Assembly (NCBI GenBank): GCA_977030845.1
Contig: OZ365116.1
Coordinates: 20,646,001 to 20,710,000, forward strand
Direction: 5' to 3'
Source of the DNA: Fimbriosthenelais zetlandica
Lineage: Eukaryota
Length of the DNA stretch: 64,000 nucleotides
Part shown: positions 6,001 through 54,000 of the stretch, piece after piece
Numbering within the stretch: the first letter of the stretch is position 1
How the letters are laid out: each line of letters opens with the position of its first letter
Program-made: the position numbers

Positions 6001-9000
6001 CCCGTGGAAAAATAATGACACAACAAGGACCGTATAGCATCACTATATTAAGTTTTCACTTAATAATATTGTAAGAGATAGTCTCTCGTCGTGGAGGGTG
6101 AGATGGTTGTTTCAATGTTTCATCTAGGTGTCAGCAGACTGACAATCCGCCTAGAGCTGGTAATCAATGACAGGGACTCATTTATTGATCCGCTAAGTTT
6201 ATTAGATCTCAGTCAGAAATGGTGGCCTCAGTTTGTGGACTCCTCTCAAATATTTACTACCTGTGACGGAGGACTAACAAATGCTTTTCAACTCTGACTT
6301 TGAGGAAATTTGTCAAAGGGAGCAAGACGGCAATGTTCTGGCAATGCATGTAGCAATACAATAGACTTTTAAACGGTTACACTCAAATGTGAGCCTCCAC
6401 TTGGCACGCCTCTCAAAGCAAACTGTTTCTTTGAGATTCCATTTCAGCTACCAGTGGAAAAAGGGTTGCTCTGTTCAAAATGGGTGCCATGCATACAAAT
6501 GGTACATTGTAGAACATGTTAAATGGGTTGTAGACTGGCAGGCTTTTAGTCCCTCTGTCATGAATAATTCTTAAAATTGCTCAATTATTCACTTCATTCG
6601 GGCCGACACCAATTGGCGGGAGGAATGGCCTCATCGATTTCCCGTGGTTAATTTGATCAATCAGCAGCAGAACCTTAGTGGCTTGCTTCATGCCACGTAA
6701 AGCCAATTCTCACTGGTTAAATTTGTCATCATATCGGATGAGATGTGTGCAACTCATCACCAACTCTACCTTCTCTTGCTTTGTTCTGCTTCTTTTCTCC
6801 ATTGCTTATGATGGCAATGGTAAAGAGCATCCGTCCTCATGGTTTCTCTCACATGTTGGTCTCCATCACCAATGTGTGAAAGAAATAATATGTATAGGTT
6901 ACCTGCCCCAGGCATTCAGGGATAAAACTCCCCATATCAAAGTACATGCTATGTGATCCGTCATTTACTGTCGACTAGTCTTCTGTACGCACACTTTCAA
7001 CATAAAAACATTGTACACAAAAACTACCCCAGCCATATAAGAAACTGTGTTGGTAATGACACCTTTGCCTCACAGCTAGCATTTGCATTATTTTATAAAA
7101 TACAAAGTGATCATCGTGGTATTAGATATCCGTTAGAGAGACGTGCTTCATCAGTAAAAATGAAGTGAAGCTGCACAGTCTTAAAATACAATCATGGCGT
7201 ATCAATAATGTAGCATTGTGTCATCTGATACTGGCGTAAAATGACATGTGGGACATAAAACTACATTACACCGCTATACGTCCTCAACAACATCGATTAT
7301 AGATGAGATGGAAGAAAAATACAGATGGTATAGAATAGTAAGGAAGACTTTATGTTAGGACTTAGAGAAGTTAGATCAATGTGAATGAGGAGCAATAGAT
7401 CTATCTGGTTAGTACTGACAAAAATGTAACAAATGTCTTGTATTAAGCAGACTCCTCTCCACCCGATCAATCACACCACTTTCAATCCTCTCAGTTACTT
7501 GACTCTGATGTTTTGCAGAACTCTCATCCAGAAGAGTTTTGAGGTATACACCAAGCATATTTGCTTCCTGTATCATAATGAAAAAATAAACGAATGGAGC
7601 ATGTTTTAGTCTTGAGAGGATTAGAAACCTGTCATATTATGAGCTACCATTGGATTTTGACAAGCCCCAGGTTTCAATCAGATGATATGGCGTTAATAAA
7701 TGAGTGAAAACATCCGCCAGGACTAAGAAGCCAAACTAAGGCCATCCAGGAAGGTTATCTCCTCTCTTCATTTCCACTAATTGATGGTATTCGATTAAGA
7801 CAGAAACTAAACATCAGGCTGACTGCGAATAAACAGGACGAGCCAGTCCACAGTCTGAATGAGGAGCCAAGAATGAAGGTATAAAATCTGGGCCACATCA
7901 TGGATAGCCCTGTGCCCGTCAGTCTCCGTCTTATAGATAACAACATGAGGGTCAGCTTGAGCGCAGGTCTAATATATATCATCATAAAGCAGGGGAATAA
8001 TCCACTTTATTCCCCCCTCGCGTATCACTGAAGGGAGGGGAAATAAGCCCTTATAAAAGCTTCCTGCCCGGGAATCAGCGCAACAATAAAGATTGATAAC
8101 GCCCGTCCCGCAACCAATCACCCCAAATCGTATTGATTTTCAAGCAATATGGGTTGTGACGTGGCAAGGGTGGGGATTGTGTTTTTTTCTGGCCTGGGTT
8201 TGTTTTTTCCCAGGGAAGCATCTTACACGGTAGCTTCTTCACCACACTAGGAGTGTCACACGGTTGCCGATGGTGGCATGAAACAGAGGGTGATGGATGT
8301 AATCAAGGTGGCTGATGCCAACTTGGCAAGTGATTAATCCTGTGGTAGGGGCTGAAGCATAGCTTGTCGGAACAATGATCAGAGTGGGTGTGGCAAGTAA
8401 GATGGATAGTGGCGAGCTAGTAAGTGGCTCCACTCTCCCTCCCAGCTACTGTCCTTGTTAAGGGAATACAACCTCATTTGTTGATCCATCTGCTCAGAAT
8501 CTCAATGGGGCATAATGGTAAGGGATAGATAAGATGTAAGAGTAGGGGGTGATTCAATGTCCCTAACCTACAAACTTTCTTCAGTTACTTACAGTAACTC
8601 CTTAGAGACAGGAAATTAACCCGGTTAAGTATATAATATGCCAGCTGATATGAGAAATCAATTGAAGTCGTCGAGGATGAGGCATTCATGGCAAGGGAAA
8701 TGAGCCACAAATTGGCATATATTCACAGCATATCTAGCTGGTGTTAAAAGCCATCTTGTGTTGCCTTTCATGATACAATACTAGCTATGACACAGCTAGT
8801 ATTGTAACAGGAAGGCCAACAGTGAAAGGGATGTGCGTCTTCCGCCCACCTCTACTCAAGGCAGGACCCTGGATCACCTGGCAGCTTCCTGTGGCCCTCC
8901 ACACATCATTCTCCTGTCATTAGTCCAGTTATCCACCTCGCTCTCATGCCATGTCATCATCAAAGACAGGCAGTGCAGGCTGGTAAAGGGCGGGCTTTAT

Positions 9001-51000: not shown

Positions 51001-54000
51001 TAGGAGTAGTGGATCCCTGACCCCCCAGTCCTCCCCCACCCCCTCTTCCTCCTCCCCCCTCTCCGCTGCAGGTCGCCATCCTCCTCGCGCCTGCTGCTCG
51101 CCCACAACTTCATATACTACTAGACTTCATTGAATTCCAGAGACAAAACGTGCTGAAAAAAGAAGAACAGAAACTTAAGAAAATAATTCATTTCATATGG
51201 AAAATTCATAAGCAATTCACAGGCTCTAATGAAAGGGAGTCTGCCTCATTAAATGTACTTATATAGAAGACAGACCAGGACTCAACCTAAGCAATTATAT
51301 TATAAATGTCTCCAATACACACACAACACAGCCTGAGCCAGCCTGGCAAGCCAAGCAAGTGCAGATCACACAGTAGATCAGGAAGAAGGTCAATAAGTAT
51401 TGATAAACGCCTCCTAGAGCAATTCAGAATTAGACTGGACCAAGAGCTTCTACAAGTCCACAAAAACTGCTTCAGTCGCCAGACAACACCCCACCCACAC
51501 ATACACCCGTATCAGGACTAGCTGGTCAATTGCCTGGGTCCTGCTGGACCCTACATCTCCCAGAGACAAAGTCCGTACCACACATAATACAGGGTGTACT
51601 GGTCCATTGTAAACAATACCAATATTGTTTATCACACTTTATGGATAATAAAAACAGTAATCTTGTAATATTAGATGTCCAAAACAGATCACTGTATGTT
51701 CTTGAGCAGTACAGTAGATTCTAGGGCAGAAAATAGGAGAATAAATTTTTCGTGGCCACCACGCAGATAATTTACGTCTACCGCACCGCTCAATGCATTG
51801 AGTGGTTGAGTTGGTAAGGCTGAAGTTCGAGTCACATGCATGAAGAGGTCTCGTTCAATAATTTAAATGGGAAATGCTGACCTGGCACACATGAGTGTAT
51901 ATAATTCAGATGATAGGGAGGTAGAGGATTTCTAATATATAAGTCATGAGAGGAGATTGTGCGGCAGGTGACCTGCCTCGTCTATATCACATACTTGTCT
52001 CATACGCCGTCCTTACTTCCTCATTCTCCTTATATCGACAGATGTTACCTACTCCCATCATCTCTCCACTTCTCAATATGACAACCCATTACTCCTTGAC
52101 CTTGCCTCATCATTGCCTTTCGTAATTGCGCTCTGCAGGAGGCAATGAACACTGGACAACCACATATACCTTCCACTGAATGGCATATCAATAGCAAGAA
52201 ATAATCACTCCTATTTATAATGAGTACATCTCCTCTAAAAGATGGGCTATTTAATATTTAATGAGAGAATACTTCATCATTATAGGTTGACTAATATTTA
52301 TGATTTTCCAGATATAGCATGGAAATATATTGATATATATGTTGAAGGAATCTAAAATGGCATGTTCCCAATCTATACAAGGGTGTATGAGCCAGCAGTT
52401 GTCCCTGTTATTGCCCACTTCAACAGACTTTAAATAGAAACTGTATTATGTTTACAGGTAATAATTCAGGATGTTTACCACATGAGACTAAACAACATCA
52501 TTCTGTCGTTATATAACTGAAATCTGTAAGTATCAGGTAACTGCATGGCATACAAAACAGACAAATAAAATATTGCTTCTATGCAATAATTATATTGATA
52601 TTAATGTCATCTTTACAGAAGCCTTGTTGGCAAGCATTGATTCTGCCTATCATCAATGAACCAGCTTCAGAGAATGTTTTGGAGCCAAGTCAATTATCAA
52701 AACCTCAATCATCCACCCAATCTAAACCAGGTATTGGTAGTGAGATGGACGTGAGGCGAGGTTACACTCTTCAGCTCACTCATGTTGCTTTCAGTGACAT
52801 GTCCTATAAATTTGATTTTATCAACAGCACAGGAGACCTGCATGCTGACCCGATATCATGAAATTCAAACCATCAGGTTCTTTTGGGGGATCTTGGGTTC
52901 TAAAGTGGATTACCTGATGGCAAAATGGTTAAATCGCTGCAGTGTATCCCAGTGCCGCGGCCACCTCTGAAGATTCCCTTGATGACCTATCTCCCACCCA
53001 AAAAGGTCAGCTATCAGATACCGTGATCCATTGGCCGCTCGATAGCTCATCATACTCGGTTTCACATCAAAGCCATGGCTGGCTTTTGATTGGCTCTGGC
53101 AGGCTGGGAAACGCTGGCTTGACTGACACCGGTGGCCAGCTTGAATTATAACCCTTTCAGCTTCCCCTGGGAGCAAAGAACCTCCTAATGTAATTTACGA
53201 TAGTTCAGCAACATGCAATTATATAATATTATGGCTTTATAATGTCAGAAACAAGTCATCAGATTCCGTCTTTATCATTATAATTGGCTCATATTCTATG
53301 ACAAGGAGTATAATCTTTAACCATTTCTTGTCTTCATTTTCTCCTGGTCTGTGTGCGGTGCTTGGGTCTGCCATGATACAAGAACCAGTAACTATAGATG
53401 CTACAAAACAAGAGTGATTTTAGATAGAGTAACTGGATACCTCACATATAAAAACCAGCCTCTATAGAAGCCTATAATCTCTGTGCTGGAGGATTTATGG
53501 CAGCAAAGATCTCTTTACAGGACTGGTGGTCACCGCCATAAACAGCAGAGTATCATCTGTACCGAAAGACGAGACATGACTAAACTGTAAGAGAAGATAT
53601 CTTACTGGACCTGGACGCCGTCAGTTATTTATATACCTATAATCATAACATATACTTAAGTTGCGTGAGGTGAAGACCCTTATTACGCATTTGAAAATTA
53701 TATATTGGAACTTTCCAGACATTTAAAAAACTAATTATGAAGAAACCTAATATTTCCATCTCCAACTGCAATCAATATGGAGCCATAGGATACTTTTAAA
53801 TTGCTAGGGATCACATTGCCAATTCTTCACAGTTCAGGATGTCACATTTTGTCAGGTCAAAATGTGTTCTGGCTGATGGGAAATCCCCAACACAGCATTC
53901 ACTTAATGATCCTGACCTACAGGTAACCTGCCTTTGAGAAGAGTTTCAAAATTTAATAAAGGGGAAGCACATCCCCTCATTATTAGAAATCCATAGAGGA

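What the first reader, a model, noticed from the sequence alone, without database searches (positions are those of the whole stretch)
6903..51079. Array of phase-matched alternative first exons: many variable N-termini on one constant kinase
Seen: ATG-initiated minus-strand ORFs end at donor consensus in phase 2 at 51079-50889, 32935-32853, 19102-18996, 13566-13559 and 6964-6903, with weaker cases at 26935, 16020 and 3806. Phase 1 cases lie at 24532-24472, 36763-36682 and 40426. These are exactly the two phases the downstream acceptors need. The peptides differ sharply (Gly-rich, acidic, basic, hydrophobic). Inference: a multi-promoter, variable-exon/constant-region organisation spread over 50 kb, richer than the few first exons I recall for DGKZ/DGKI. 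Caveat: the same manual test also yields chance hits on the plus strand, so the weaker candidates may be false.
Basis: partly seen in the sequence, partly recalled or inferred. Interest (0 to 1): 0.65.

Follow-up and report, generated by a model that had tools for sequence, protein, structure and literature searches.

The report
Two alternative start exons of a DGK gene
The window holds the front end of an invertebrate diacylglycerol kinase zeta/iota-type gene with two real, mutually exclusive start exons, as already annotated in related animals, while most of the other proposed first exons look like chance.

Summary
The sequence is not human. Its one large coding exon (minus strand, 11332-10198) matches the long N-terminus of DGK zeta-like proteins of molluscs, annelids and a nemertean.

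As a class they are no more than chance: ATG-ORF-donor hits number 66 on the minus strand (phases 24/19/23), 78 on the plus strand and 53±9 in shuffles.

One candidate is real. Exon 51079-50889 ends ...DLSDKLSHCNIRKQTSY + AG. That is the canonical first coding exon of short DGK zeta/iota isoforms from molluscs to skates (HMM E=3e-7, best of 4407 ORFs).

The 11332 exon carries its own conserved start codon and ends in the same phase. So two alternative N-termini are confirmed.

Two more candidates have promoter-like support only. 13566 lies behind three CRE half-sites plus a TATA-like box. 36763 lies behind two ETS sites in a CpG-rich patch.

The other seven candidates have no support. The constant kinase is not in the window.

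Mytilus edulis models are named up to isoform X48 and show several N-terminal classes. This is a new member of a known kind.

The parts
50889..51079 (-). Exon A: canonical alternative first coding exon. ATG at 51079, 63 codons plus AG, donor CAG|GTCAGT, phase 2. Peptide MATCSGEGGGG...DLSDKLSHCNIRKQTSY.
   Evidence: ORF and donor were read. An HMM of 7 mollusc short-isoform N-termini, run against 4407 six-frame ORFs, gave ORF 51109-50882(-) as best hit (E=3e-7, 28.6 bits). The alignment ends exactly at the donor; the next hit is at 0.055. The same ...(I/F)(R/K)KQTSY|R motif occurs in 16 of 16 named proteins examined, from molluscs, hemichordates, echinoderms and fish or skate DGK iota. Codon-usage score is 19.2, the top value outside exon B among 144 hits. 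Kozak context is A-3/G+4.
10198..11332 (-). Exon B: long-form N-terminal exon (1135 nt). Acceptor ttttttaag|CC. In-frame ATGs at 11327 (MVASNSK) and 11306 (MNLFKK). Donor GACAG|GTAAAC, phase 2. Ser-rich, with repeated R-x-(S/R)-S-S-(F/M/V)-D motifs.
   Evidence: 379-aa open frame; sequence. There are 6 hits at 34-41% identity, 5 of them named or domain-annotated as DGK (zeta-like; Haliotis, Patella, Gigantopelta, Lineus, Pinctada) and one a Capitella hypothetical protein without listed domains. There are 61 representatives at E<=1e-3, the best 68% identical and ending ...YKAITTTKAEDR like the window. There are 54 hits at E<=1e-10 in the near-length search. No Pfam family matches.
13559..13566 (-). 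A possible minimal N-terminus exon; suggestive only.
   Evidence: Sequence. Kozak context is A-3/G+4. It is the only CAGGCRAGT on the minus strand. There is a precedent in the N-termini 'MG|KAISK' of Dreissena X7 and Mactra. No homology test is possible for 2 residues.
13626..13658 (-). Promoter-like element: three TGACGT (CRE half-sites; motif name recalled) at exact 11-nt spacing, the last one abutting TATAAG. It lies 65-92 nt upstream of ATG 13566 and 2.3 kb upstream of exon B.
   Evidence: 18 TGACGT sites in the window, 3 of them here. The simulated probability that 3 of 18 random sites fall within 28 nt is 4e-4. It is one of only 5 triple 6-mer clusters in the window.
36682..36763 (-). 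It would be in frame with exon B through acceptor 11332. A possible leader or first exon; suggestive only.
   Evidence: Kozak context is A-3/G+4. The codon score is unremarkable (34th percentile). The N-terminal extension it would add is not seen in 23 of 24 exon-B homologues.
36784..36807 (-). Promoter-like element: the only two ACTTCCGG (ETS-type; motif name recalled) in the window, 16 nt apart. They lie 21-44 nt upstream of ATG 36763, inside the most CpG-rich patch (about 36.4-37.4 kb).
   Evidence: 2 matches, both here. (CpG o/e 1.0-1.3 against a window median of 0.42). (upstream 250 nt has o/e 1.47). No Pfam or transposon domain was found in 10 ORFs of 35.4-37.7 kb.
51190..51224 (-). Three TGAATT within 30 nt, 111-140 nt upstream of the exon A start codon, with a TATATAAG-like box at about 51265. 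Possible regulatory element of exon A.
   Evidence: one of 5 triple 6-mer clusters.
32853..32935 (-).
   Evidence: The ORF and GT donor are present. The codon score of 3.0 lies inside the plus-strand control range, which reaches 7.6 outside the antisense of exon B. No motif cluster. No match to 11 foreign N-terminal peptides.
18996..19102 (-).
   Evidence: score 0.4; Kozak T/C.
6903..6964 (-).
   Evidence: score -7.9, rank 123 of 144; Kozak T/A.
24472..24532 (-).
   Evidence: (score 2.6).
279..326 (-). It reads S-KSRINRFGNTRASVK-R. The basic ...RASVKR end loosely recalls Mytilus X48 (MSKGMRRSYAIKR) and a shark cassette (...KRSSVVYK).
   Evidence: frame and GT at AAG|GTAGGC; for the foreign peptides. 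The resemblance is by eye only. blastp-short gave no hit here and the polypyrimidine tract is weak.

Best explanation
The window is the 5' part of a type IV (zeta/iota-like) diacylglycerol kinase gene on the minus strand of a non-human, lophotrochozoan-type invertebrate genome. It contains two alternative exons that each carry a start codon.

Exon A (51079-50889) encodes the ancient canonical N-terminus ending ...IRKQTSY. Exon B (11332-10198), about 40 kb downstream, encodes a lineage-restricted 376-residue Ser-rich N-terminus.

Both exons end with AG in phase 2. Either one can therefore be joined to the first constant exon. In relatives that exon begins (R)KAISK; here it lies beyond coordinate 1 and was not seen. 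Joining A to B is not productive. A phase-2 donor opens the wrong frame at 11332, and that frame closes at about 11149.

Choice of transcription start and first exon therefore gives a short and a long isoform of one kinase. This is annotated in molluscs and is analogous to mammalian DGK zeta1/zeta2.

Shown: the two exons, their homology, their start codons and their phases. Inferred: the splicing to the unseen constant exon, separate promoters, and mutual exclusivity.

The other nine proposed first exons are the kind of hit that any 64 kb gives by chance. Two of them, 13566 and 36763, sit directly behind promoter-like motif clusters and remain open.
For: Exon B homology: 5 named or domain-annotated DGK (zeta-like) proteins plus a Capitella protein. 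tblastn maps them only to 11306-10209. There are 61 representatives at E<=1e-3 and 54 near-length hits at E<=1e-10.

Start codon inside exon B: 23 of 24 homologues inspected begin within 8 residues of the M..F(K/R)(K/R) motif. The closest relatives begin MNLFKK... and MVANTKMNLFKK....

Exon A homology: HMM E=3e-7, best of 4407 ORFs, with the alignment ending at the donor. The ...KQTSY|R(K)AI junction is present in 16 of 16 named proteins from four phyla.

Same phase: both exons end ...AG|.

The A-to-B frame closes: ORF 11149-11439(-) reads ...SLHGCVQ... to a stop.

Null model: 66 minus, 78 plus, 53±9 shuffled, with flat phases. Codon score separates only exon A (19.2) from the controls.

Relatives carry the same two N-termini on one constant body, for example Ostrea edulis X5 and X17, and the Mytilus long and short forms.
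Against: No transcript data of any kind could be consulted, so no junction is shown. The constant exon and the kinase domains are not in the window, so the common acceptor and its phase are inferred from relatives.

The donor matrix and the motif names are recalled, not derived from this genome. The real exon B donor scores only 3.45 bits, so weak donors can be real, and the null model cannot exclude individual candidates.

The codon score was trained on exon B alone (376 codons).

Two of the 'chance' candidates have non-trivial promoter-like support. 'Only two' may therefore be an undercount. Mussel-type proteins show at least four N-terminal classes.

Exon A is preceded by an acceptor-like ttttttcag at about 51153 and by two upstream ATGs. 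It may not be the very first exon of its transcript.
Confidence: 0.8

Rival explanations
1. Intermediate model: a four-promoter gene. There would be (1) the exon A promoter; (2) an ETS/CpG-rich promoter at about 36.8 kb, whose exon 36763-36682 (phase 1) splices to 11332 and leads into exon B, either as a leader or as a 29-residue extension; (3) a CRE/TATA promoter at about 13.63 kb, whose mini exon ATGGACAG uses a GC donor and joins the constant exon to give a minimal M-D-R N-terminus; and (4) exon B as the long-form start exon.
For: Three TGACGT sites at 11-nt spacing abut TATAAG 65-92 nt upstream of ATG 13566. The cluster probability is 4e-4.

The only two ACTTCCGG sites in the window lie 21-44 nt upstream of ATG 36763, in the top CpG patch.

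A-3/G+4 Kozak context is found at exactly exon A, 13566 and 36763 among the 11 candidates.

The phases fit: 36763 is phase 1, as 11332 needs, and 13566 is phase 2, as the constant exon needs.

Two of the 5 triple 6-mer clusters in the window lie within 140 nt upstream of candidate ATGs. My own arithmetic gives about 0.005 for that by chance.

Minimal 'MG' N-termini exist in Dreissena X7 and Mactra.
Against: The motifs were noticed while I was looking at the candidates, and the cluster definition was chosen afterwards.

The 36763 extension is absent from 23 of 24 exon-B homologues, and its codon score is at the 34th percentile.

GC donors are rare (recalled). A 2-codon exon cannot be tested by homology.

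The elements could be enhancers, or promoters of non-coding or plus-strand transcripts.
Confidence: 0.25
2. One reading: a 50-kb array of eight or more phase-matched coding first exons, each giving the kinase a different N-terminus.
For: All stated ORFs exist in the stated phases. Relatives are annotated with many isoforms: Mytilus edulis names run up to X48, and there are clusters of 100 and 213 member sequences. At least four N-terminal classes are seen in mussel-type proteins.
Against: There is no strand or phase excess over controls. Codon scores of 32935, 24532, 19102 and 6964 lie inside the plus-strand range.

These candidates have no motif cluster and poor Kozak context.

None of 11 foreign N-terminal peptides matches any candidate. 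Those peptides were Mytilus X48, the Pomacea cassette, Holothuria, Lamellibrachia, Elysia, Lingula X2, shark X5 and X6, urchin X4, Dreissena X3 and P0070.

The high isoform numbers in the Mytilus edulis sequences I read come mostly from internal differences: 4 of the 5 fetched (X40, X43, X44, X46) share the exon A N-terminus.
Confidence: 0.05
3. The 13.6-kb and 36.8-kb elements are real regulatory DNA but add no coding N-terminus. They would drive non-coding leader exons of the exon-B mRNA, act as intronic enhancers, or belong to another transcript. The gene would then have exactly two protein N-termini in this window.
For: The conserved start codon lies inside exon B. Exon B has a strong acceptor 5 nt upstream of its first ATG, so an upstream leader exon is expected. 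There is no conservation evidence for either small ORF.
Against: An ATG in strong context in a leader exon would pre-empt the exon B start. At 36763 it is in frame. At 13566 it is out of frame and would run about 60 codons across the exon B start (frames). That is an awkward design for a leader.
Confidence: 0.35

Closest known systems
NCBI-annotated DGK zeta-like isoform sets of molluscs (Mytilus edulis X40-X48, Ostrea edulis X5/X17, Dreissena polymorpha X3/X7, Haliotis asinina X3, Pomacea X5)
   Same: They carry the same two N-termini on one constant body. The long form starts M..F(K/R)(K/R).RSRSPSF(E/D)IPKLC..., like exon B. The short form starts MA... and ends ...(I)(R/K)KQTSY, like exon A. 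In both forms the next residues are R-KAISK.
   Different: Exon B is only 34-41% identical to the named proteins. Exon A here has a Gly-rich N-terminal part of about 35 residues that the 7 mollusc sequences aligned do not share. Further classes in relatives have no detectable counterpart in the window. These are MSKGMRRSYAIKR; MG; MDIAYITVPEESPPKQSCIPFCCF, the last from an unnamed source. Dreissena X3 joins exon A to the 3' part of the exon-B region, which the phases here would not allow at 11332.
Vertebrate DGK zeta isoforms: zeta1 (115 kDa) and zeta2 (130 kDa) in mammals, and the shark Heterodontus francisci X2/X4/X5/X6
   Same: One kinase body carries alternative N-termini that converge on the exon beginning KAI(A/T)KSG. 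The shark shows three N-termini plus a cassette. For mammals, passages in PMC3701226 say alternative splicing gives zeta1 and zeta2. [quoted passage not shown]
   Different: blastp gave no hit (E<=10) between exon B and the first 420 residues of the shark long form. The original descriptions of the human DGKZ gene structure and of the rat DGK iota variants are recalled only; I did not see them.
First coding exon of vertebrate DGK iota (skate, stingray, paddlefish, sturgeon) and of hemichordate and echinoderm DGK zeta-like genes
   Same: The motif ...L(S/K)....(I/F)(R/K)KQTSY is immediately followed by RKAI. It is identical in position to the end of exon A. Ungapped identity to the window over the last 22 residues is 8-13 of 22.
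   Different: Everything N-terminal of that motif is unrelated between phyla.
Variable-first-exon / constant-exon clusters (clustered protocadherins, UGT1A; recalled, not tested against data)
   Same: The logic is the same: promoter choice selects one of several 5' exons, which is spliced to shared downstream exons.
   Different: Those arrays consist of many paralogous exons. Here the candidate peptides are unrelated to each other (best all-vs-all E=0.028 over 8 residues), and only two exons are confirmed.

Membership tests
Type IV diacylglycerol kinase (DGK zeta/iota) gene | N-terminal exon homologous to that of annotated DGK zeta-like proteins | tested here: met
   Exon B gave 6 hits at 34-41% identity. 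Five of them carry C1 plus DAGK catalytic Pfam domains, and four of those also carry accessory and ankyrin domains. tblastn maps them to 11306-10209.
Type IV diacylglycerol kinase (DGK zeta/iota) gene | Canonical first coding exon ending ...(R/K)KQTSY in phase 2 before R-KAISK | tested here: met
   HMM E=3e-7 at 51109-50882(-), ending at the donor. The motif is present in 16 of 16 named relatives. The KAISK exon itself was not seen.
Type IV diacylglycerol kinase (DGK zeta/iota) gene | Two C1 domains, DAGK catalytic and accessory domains, ankyrin repeats, C-terminal ETAV | not testable with these tools
   I searched the whole window and found none. By the direction of the gene these exons lie beyond coordinate 1, and no further sequence of this genome was available.
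Alternative-first-exon (multi-promoter) gene with variable N-terminus and constant body | At least two 5' exons, each with its own start codon, that cannot be combined in frame | tested here: met
   Exon A uses ATG 51079. Exon B uses ATG 11327 or 11306. A phase-2 donor entering 11332 opens the frame of ORF 11149-11439, which closes.
Alternative-first-exon (multi-promoter) gene with variable N-terminus and constant body | All variable exons end in the phase required by one shared acceptor | tested here: inconclusive
   Both confirmed exons end AG| in phase 2. The shared acceptor is outside the window. Across all ATG-ORF-donor hits the phases are flat.
Alternative-first-exon (multi-promoter) gene with variable N-terminus and constant body | A separate promoter in front of each variable exon | tested here: inconclusive
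   Motif clusters lie upstream of exon A (TGAATT x3), 13566 (TGACGT x3 plus TATAAG) and 36763 (ACTTCCGG x2 in a CpG-rich patch). No cluster lies directly upstream of exon B. There are no transcription-start data.
Alternative-first-exon (multi-promoter) gene with variable N-terminus and constant body | Transcripts that join each variable exon to the constant exon | not testable with these tools
   No RNA-seq, cDNA or CAGE resource and no eukaryotic genome collection was available. Support comes only from gene models of other species.
Tandem array of paralogous variable exons (protocadherin/UGT1A type) | Variable exons are sequence-related duplicates | tested here: not met
   An all-vs-all blastp-short of 8 candidate peptides gave nothing better than E=0.028 over 8 residues. 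No long direct repeats link the candidates.

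The most novel reading that the evidence does not exclude
The gene is a true multi-promoter unit in which each promoter type delivers a different N-terminus to one kinase. A tissue-type promoter gives the ancient IRKQTSY N-terminus (exon A). A CpG-rich, ETS-driven promoter at 36.8 kb gives the long Ser-rich form, with a species-specific in-frame extension. 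A triple-CRE/TATA promoter at 13.6 kb gives a cAMP-inducible, almost N-terminus-less M-D-R form through a GC-AG intron. That would couple second-messenger-responsive transcription directly to the choice of regulatory N-terminus of a diacylglycerol-consuming enzyme.
Probability: 0.2. Interest if true: 0.45.

Novelty: new member of a known kind. Interest (0 to 1): 0.25.

Why it matters
It gives a correct 5' gene model for this locus: two start exons 40 kb apart, sharing one phase, with the constant body off the window.

It shows that the hand test 'ATG-ORF ending at a donor in the right phase' has no discriminating power in 64 kb of intron-like DNA. About 30% of frames at any donor-like GT pass it (66 of 222). 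Homology picked out the one real case.

The (I/F)(R/K)KQTSY-RKAI junction is conserved from molluscs to vertebrate DGK iota. This points to an unstudied functional motif at the start of type IV DGKs.

If the two promoter-like elements are real, they offer a simple testable link between cAMP/CREB-type and ETS-type regulation and DGK isoform choice in an invertebrate. None of this would surprise a DGK specialist much.

Tried and rejected
- The listing of cluster members, to see the isoforms inside the Haliotis, Patella, Lineus and Gigantopelta clusters, could not be run because the database is switched off. The member isoforms of those clusters stayed unseen.
- Rfam: 0 matches.
- Pfam on exon B: 0 families. 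Pfam on the 9 longest other ORFs plus exon A gave only sub-threshold hits, the best being DUF3504 at E=0.001 at 21460-21843(+). Pfam on 10 ORFs of the CpG-rich patch gave nothing.
- Six-frame translation with stops was rejected by the Pfam tool. I replaced it with stop-free ORFs.
- The Atlas search of exon B had a best score of 0.82, below the level the tool calls meaningful.
- An HMM of the post-exon-B and C1 region against the window found nothing.
- blastp-short of 11 foreign N-terminal or cassette peptides against the window's ORFs matched only the Dreissena X3 middle part, to exon B. Nothing hit any reader candidate or 326-279.
- blastp of exon B against the vertebrate and echinoderm N-termini gave nothing below E=6; the only other hit was Lingula X2, a brachiopod, at E=0.049.
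- Repeats: only a 215-nt perfect tandem duplication at 39579-39994 and a palindrome at 36131-36198. Neither links the candidates.
- Literature: four searches found no paper on invertebrate DGK zeta N-terminal isoforms. This covers only the open-access library searched. PMC11259711 was opened and was irrelevant to DGK promoters. Supplements are closed and were not consulted.
No related eukaryotic genome could therefore be compared.
- I considered and rejected that the CpG-rich patch is a young transposon. It has no repeat copy in the window and no transposon domain, though a non-autonomous element cannot be excluded.

Full report
**Source and strand.** The window has no N. It is 41% G+C with a CpG observed/expected ratio of 0.43. 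Its only long coding frame is on the minus strand at 11333-10194 (379 aa). That frame matches the N-terminal part of DGK zeta-like proteins of Haliotis, Patella, Gigantopelta, Lineus and Pinctada, and a Capitella protein, at 34-41% identity (6 of 6 hits). I therefore take the contig for a lophotrochozoan-type invertebrate and not for human.

**Checking the observation.** All 7 fully specified ORFs start with ATG, stay open and end at the stated base in the stated phase. Six are followed by GT. The seventh, 13566-13559, is followed by GC (CAG|GCGAGT). The four start-only candidates have an ATG where stated. For 26935 and 40426 a donor in the stated phase is readable; for 16020 and 3806 I did not locate one. 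The five acceptors have AG.

I used a donor matrix typed from recalled textbook frequencies. At 3.2 bits or more, ATG-initiated open frames reach 66 distinct donor/phase pairs on the minus strand (24/19/23 for phases 0/1/2). The plus strand gives 78 (26/28/24), and 30 dinucleotide shuffles give 53.4±9.1. At 4.9 bits the counts are 22, 27 and 17.7±4.7. There are 74 donor-like GTs on the minus strand, so about 30% of all donor frames pass the test (66 of 222, my arithmetic). The class of hits is therefore chance-like, and the phases are flat.

**What the window does not hold.** tblastn with six DGK zeta-like proteins found only 11306-10209. An HMM of the 330 residues that follow this exon in five relatives (KAISK...YLHPSHAE...C1 domains) found nothing better than E=2.4 among the six-frame ORFs. 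The constant kinase is thus outside the window, beyond coordinate 1.

**Exon B (11332-10198).**
- It has a strong acceptor (cttttcacttttttaag|CC) and in-frame ATGs at 11327 (MVASNSK...) and 11306 (MNLFKK...).
- Its donor is GACAG|GTAAAC, which leaves AG in phase 2.
- A search of 1.84 billion representatives gave 61 hits at E<=1e-3. The best is 68% identical, begins MNLFKKARSRSPSFDIPKL and ends ...YKAITTTKAEDR exactly like the window. The second begins MVANTKMNLFKK.
- Of 24 homologues whose N-terminus I inspected, 23 start within 8 residues of the M..F(K/R)(K/R) motif. The exception is from an unnamed source.
- The start codon of the long isoform therefore lies inside this exon.
- Exon B has no Pfam family. 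It gave no blastp hit (E<=10) with the long N-terminus of shark DGK zeta.

**Exon A (51079-50889).** To obtain short isoforms I searched with the C1 region of the Haliotis protein. This gave 1390 hits, of which 120 were listed. Named models include Mytilus edulis isoforms X40-X48 and Ostrea edulis X17.
- Their N-termini read MAECASIPSDSDNEEDLLDKLSNFSIKKQTSY-RKAISK (Mytilus)...LPDKLSAFTIRKQTSY-R (Physella), and so on.
- An HMM of seven mollusc N-termini, run against all 4407 six-frame ORFs of 8 aa or more, ranks ORF 51109-50882(-) first (E=3e-7, 28.6 bits). The alignment ends at the last profile position and at the donor. The next hit is at E=0.055, on the other strand.
- The same ...(I/F)(R/K)KQTSY|R(K)AI junction is present in 16 of 16 named proteins examined. 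These include two hemichordates, three echinoderms and four fish or skate DGK iota proteins.
- Exon A has A-3/G+4 around its ATG.
- Its codon-usage score is 19.2. That is the highest outside exon B among the 144 hits on both strands, and it lies at the 99.6th percentile of 460 plus-strand ORFs. The score was trained on exon B only.
- Exon A is thus the ancient canonical first coding exon of type IV DGKs.

**How the two exons relate.** Both end AG| in phase 2. In relatives, both N-termini are followed by R-KAISK on an otherwise shared protein. A phase-2 donor entering 11332 opens the frame listed as ORF 11149-11439(-), which reads ...SLHGCVQ... and closes at about 11149. Joining A to B would therefore truncate the protein. 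I infer mutually exclusive use. This is the architecture annotated in molluscs and the analogue of mammalian zeta1/zeta2, described as 115 and 130 kDa splice forms in passages of PMC3701226. Passages of PMC7555651 give 'one to three' variants for zeta and iota. In shark DGK zeta, three N-termini and a cassette converge on KAIAKSG.

**The other candidates.**
- Codon scores of 32935 (3.0), 24532 (2.6), 19102 (0.4) and 6964 (-7.9) lie inside the plus-strand control range, which reaches 7.6 outside the antisense of exon B. 36763 lies at the 34th percentile.
- Eleven N-terminal or cassette peptides from other species match none of them.
- The candidate peptides are unrelated to one another, so this is not a paralogous exon array.

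**Two candidates that stand out for a different reason.**
- Upstream of ATG 13566 lie three TGACGT sites at exact 11-nt spacing (13658-13631), the last abutting TATAAG. The window has 18 TGACGT sites. The simulated chance that 3 of 18 random sites fall within 28 nt is 4e-4.
- Upstream of ATG 36763 lie the only two ACTTCCGG sites in the window (36807-36784). They sit in the most CpG-rich patch, with o/e 1.0-1.47 against a window median of 0.42. That patch has no transposon domain.
- Both ATGs have A-3/G+4, as does exon A and no other candidate.
- Only five non-low-complexity 6-mers occur three times within 30 nt anywhere in the window. Two of these clusters lie within 140 nt upstream of candidate ATGs: TGACGT before 13566 and TGAATT before exon A. 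My own arithmetic puts that at about 0.005 by chance.
- Caveats: I noticed the motifs while reading around the candidates. Their names (CRE, ETS, TATA, Kozak) are recalled knowledge. The cluster definition was set afterwards.
- The 13566 exon would give M-D-R-KAISK, which resembles the 'MG-KAISK' N-termini of Dreissena X7 and Mactra, but it needs a GC donor.
- The 36763 exon is in frame with exon B, but relatives do not share such an extension.
- I rate both as open leads.

**Verdict.** It is possibly right for two more, and it is unsupported for the rest. The organisation is already annotated in related species and is known in principle from vertebrate DGK zeta and iota. This is a new member of a known kind, of modest interest.

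**What stayed unchecked.**
- Any transcript evidence.
- Any related eukaryotic genome. No such collection was open.
- The member isoforms of the protein clusters (could not be run).
- Supplements of papers.
- The older primary papers on the DGKZ and DGKI gene structures, which I only recall.

Noticed in passing
window 10198-11332 (-): Exon B is a Ser-rich, probably disordered region. It has five or six repeats of a basic-Ser motif (RIRSSSFD, YRSKSFD, RRKSLEIPRLCIHCVHLE, KPRSSSMD, RRGSFD, QPRSSSVD), and these are the best-conserved islands in all homologues. They look like basophilic-kinase or 14-3-3-type sites (recalled, not tested). No Pfam family covers the region.
   Followed up: partly
window 50889-50960 (-) and relatives: The junction motif (I/F)(R/K)KQTSY-RKAI(S/A)K at the end of the first coding exon is conserved from molluscs through hemichordates and echinoderms to fish and skate DGK iota (16 of 16 sequences). 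Alternative N-termini of other classes end in loosely similar basic-Ser-aromatic strings (RRSYAIKR, RRGSYW, KRSSVVYK). This suggests a functional site at the entry to the constant region.
   Followed up: partly
window 27700-27850 (-): A second CpG-rich patch (27.2-27.8 kb, o/e about 1.0) carries GGATTC three times within 30 nt, a TGACGT at 27846-27841 and a TATAAAT at about 27716. It is possibly another regulatory element.
   Followed up: no
window 39579-39994: A perfect (100%) tandem duplication of a 215-nt unit, 1.9 copies. It is either a very recent duplication or an assembly artefact.
   Followed up: no
window 21460-21843 (+): A 127-aa open frame has a sub-threshold Pfam match to DUF3504 (E=0.001, 19.5 bits against a cut-off of 29.7). 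It is possibly a decayed mobile-element relic in the intron.
   Followed up: no
They read S-KSRINRFGNTRASVK-R and S-ARFPTGRKNSVSDLSRPLLD-G. They could be cassette exons like those of Pomacea X5 or shark X4, but both acceptors have weak pyrimidine tracts and no homology was found.
   Followed up: partly
window 51080-51160 (-): Exon A's start codon is preceded by an acceptor-like ttcttcttttttcag at about 51153 and by two upstream ATGs (a 3-codon ORF and a longer out-of-frame ORF). Either transcription starts within about 35 nt of the ATG, or the mRNA carries upstream ORFs.
   Followed up: no
whole window: CpG o/e is uniformly low (median 0.42) apart from a few 0.5-2 kb patches near 1.0. That pattern fits a germline-methylated gene body with unmethylated islands.
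   Followed up: partly
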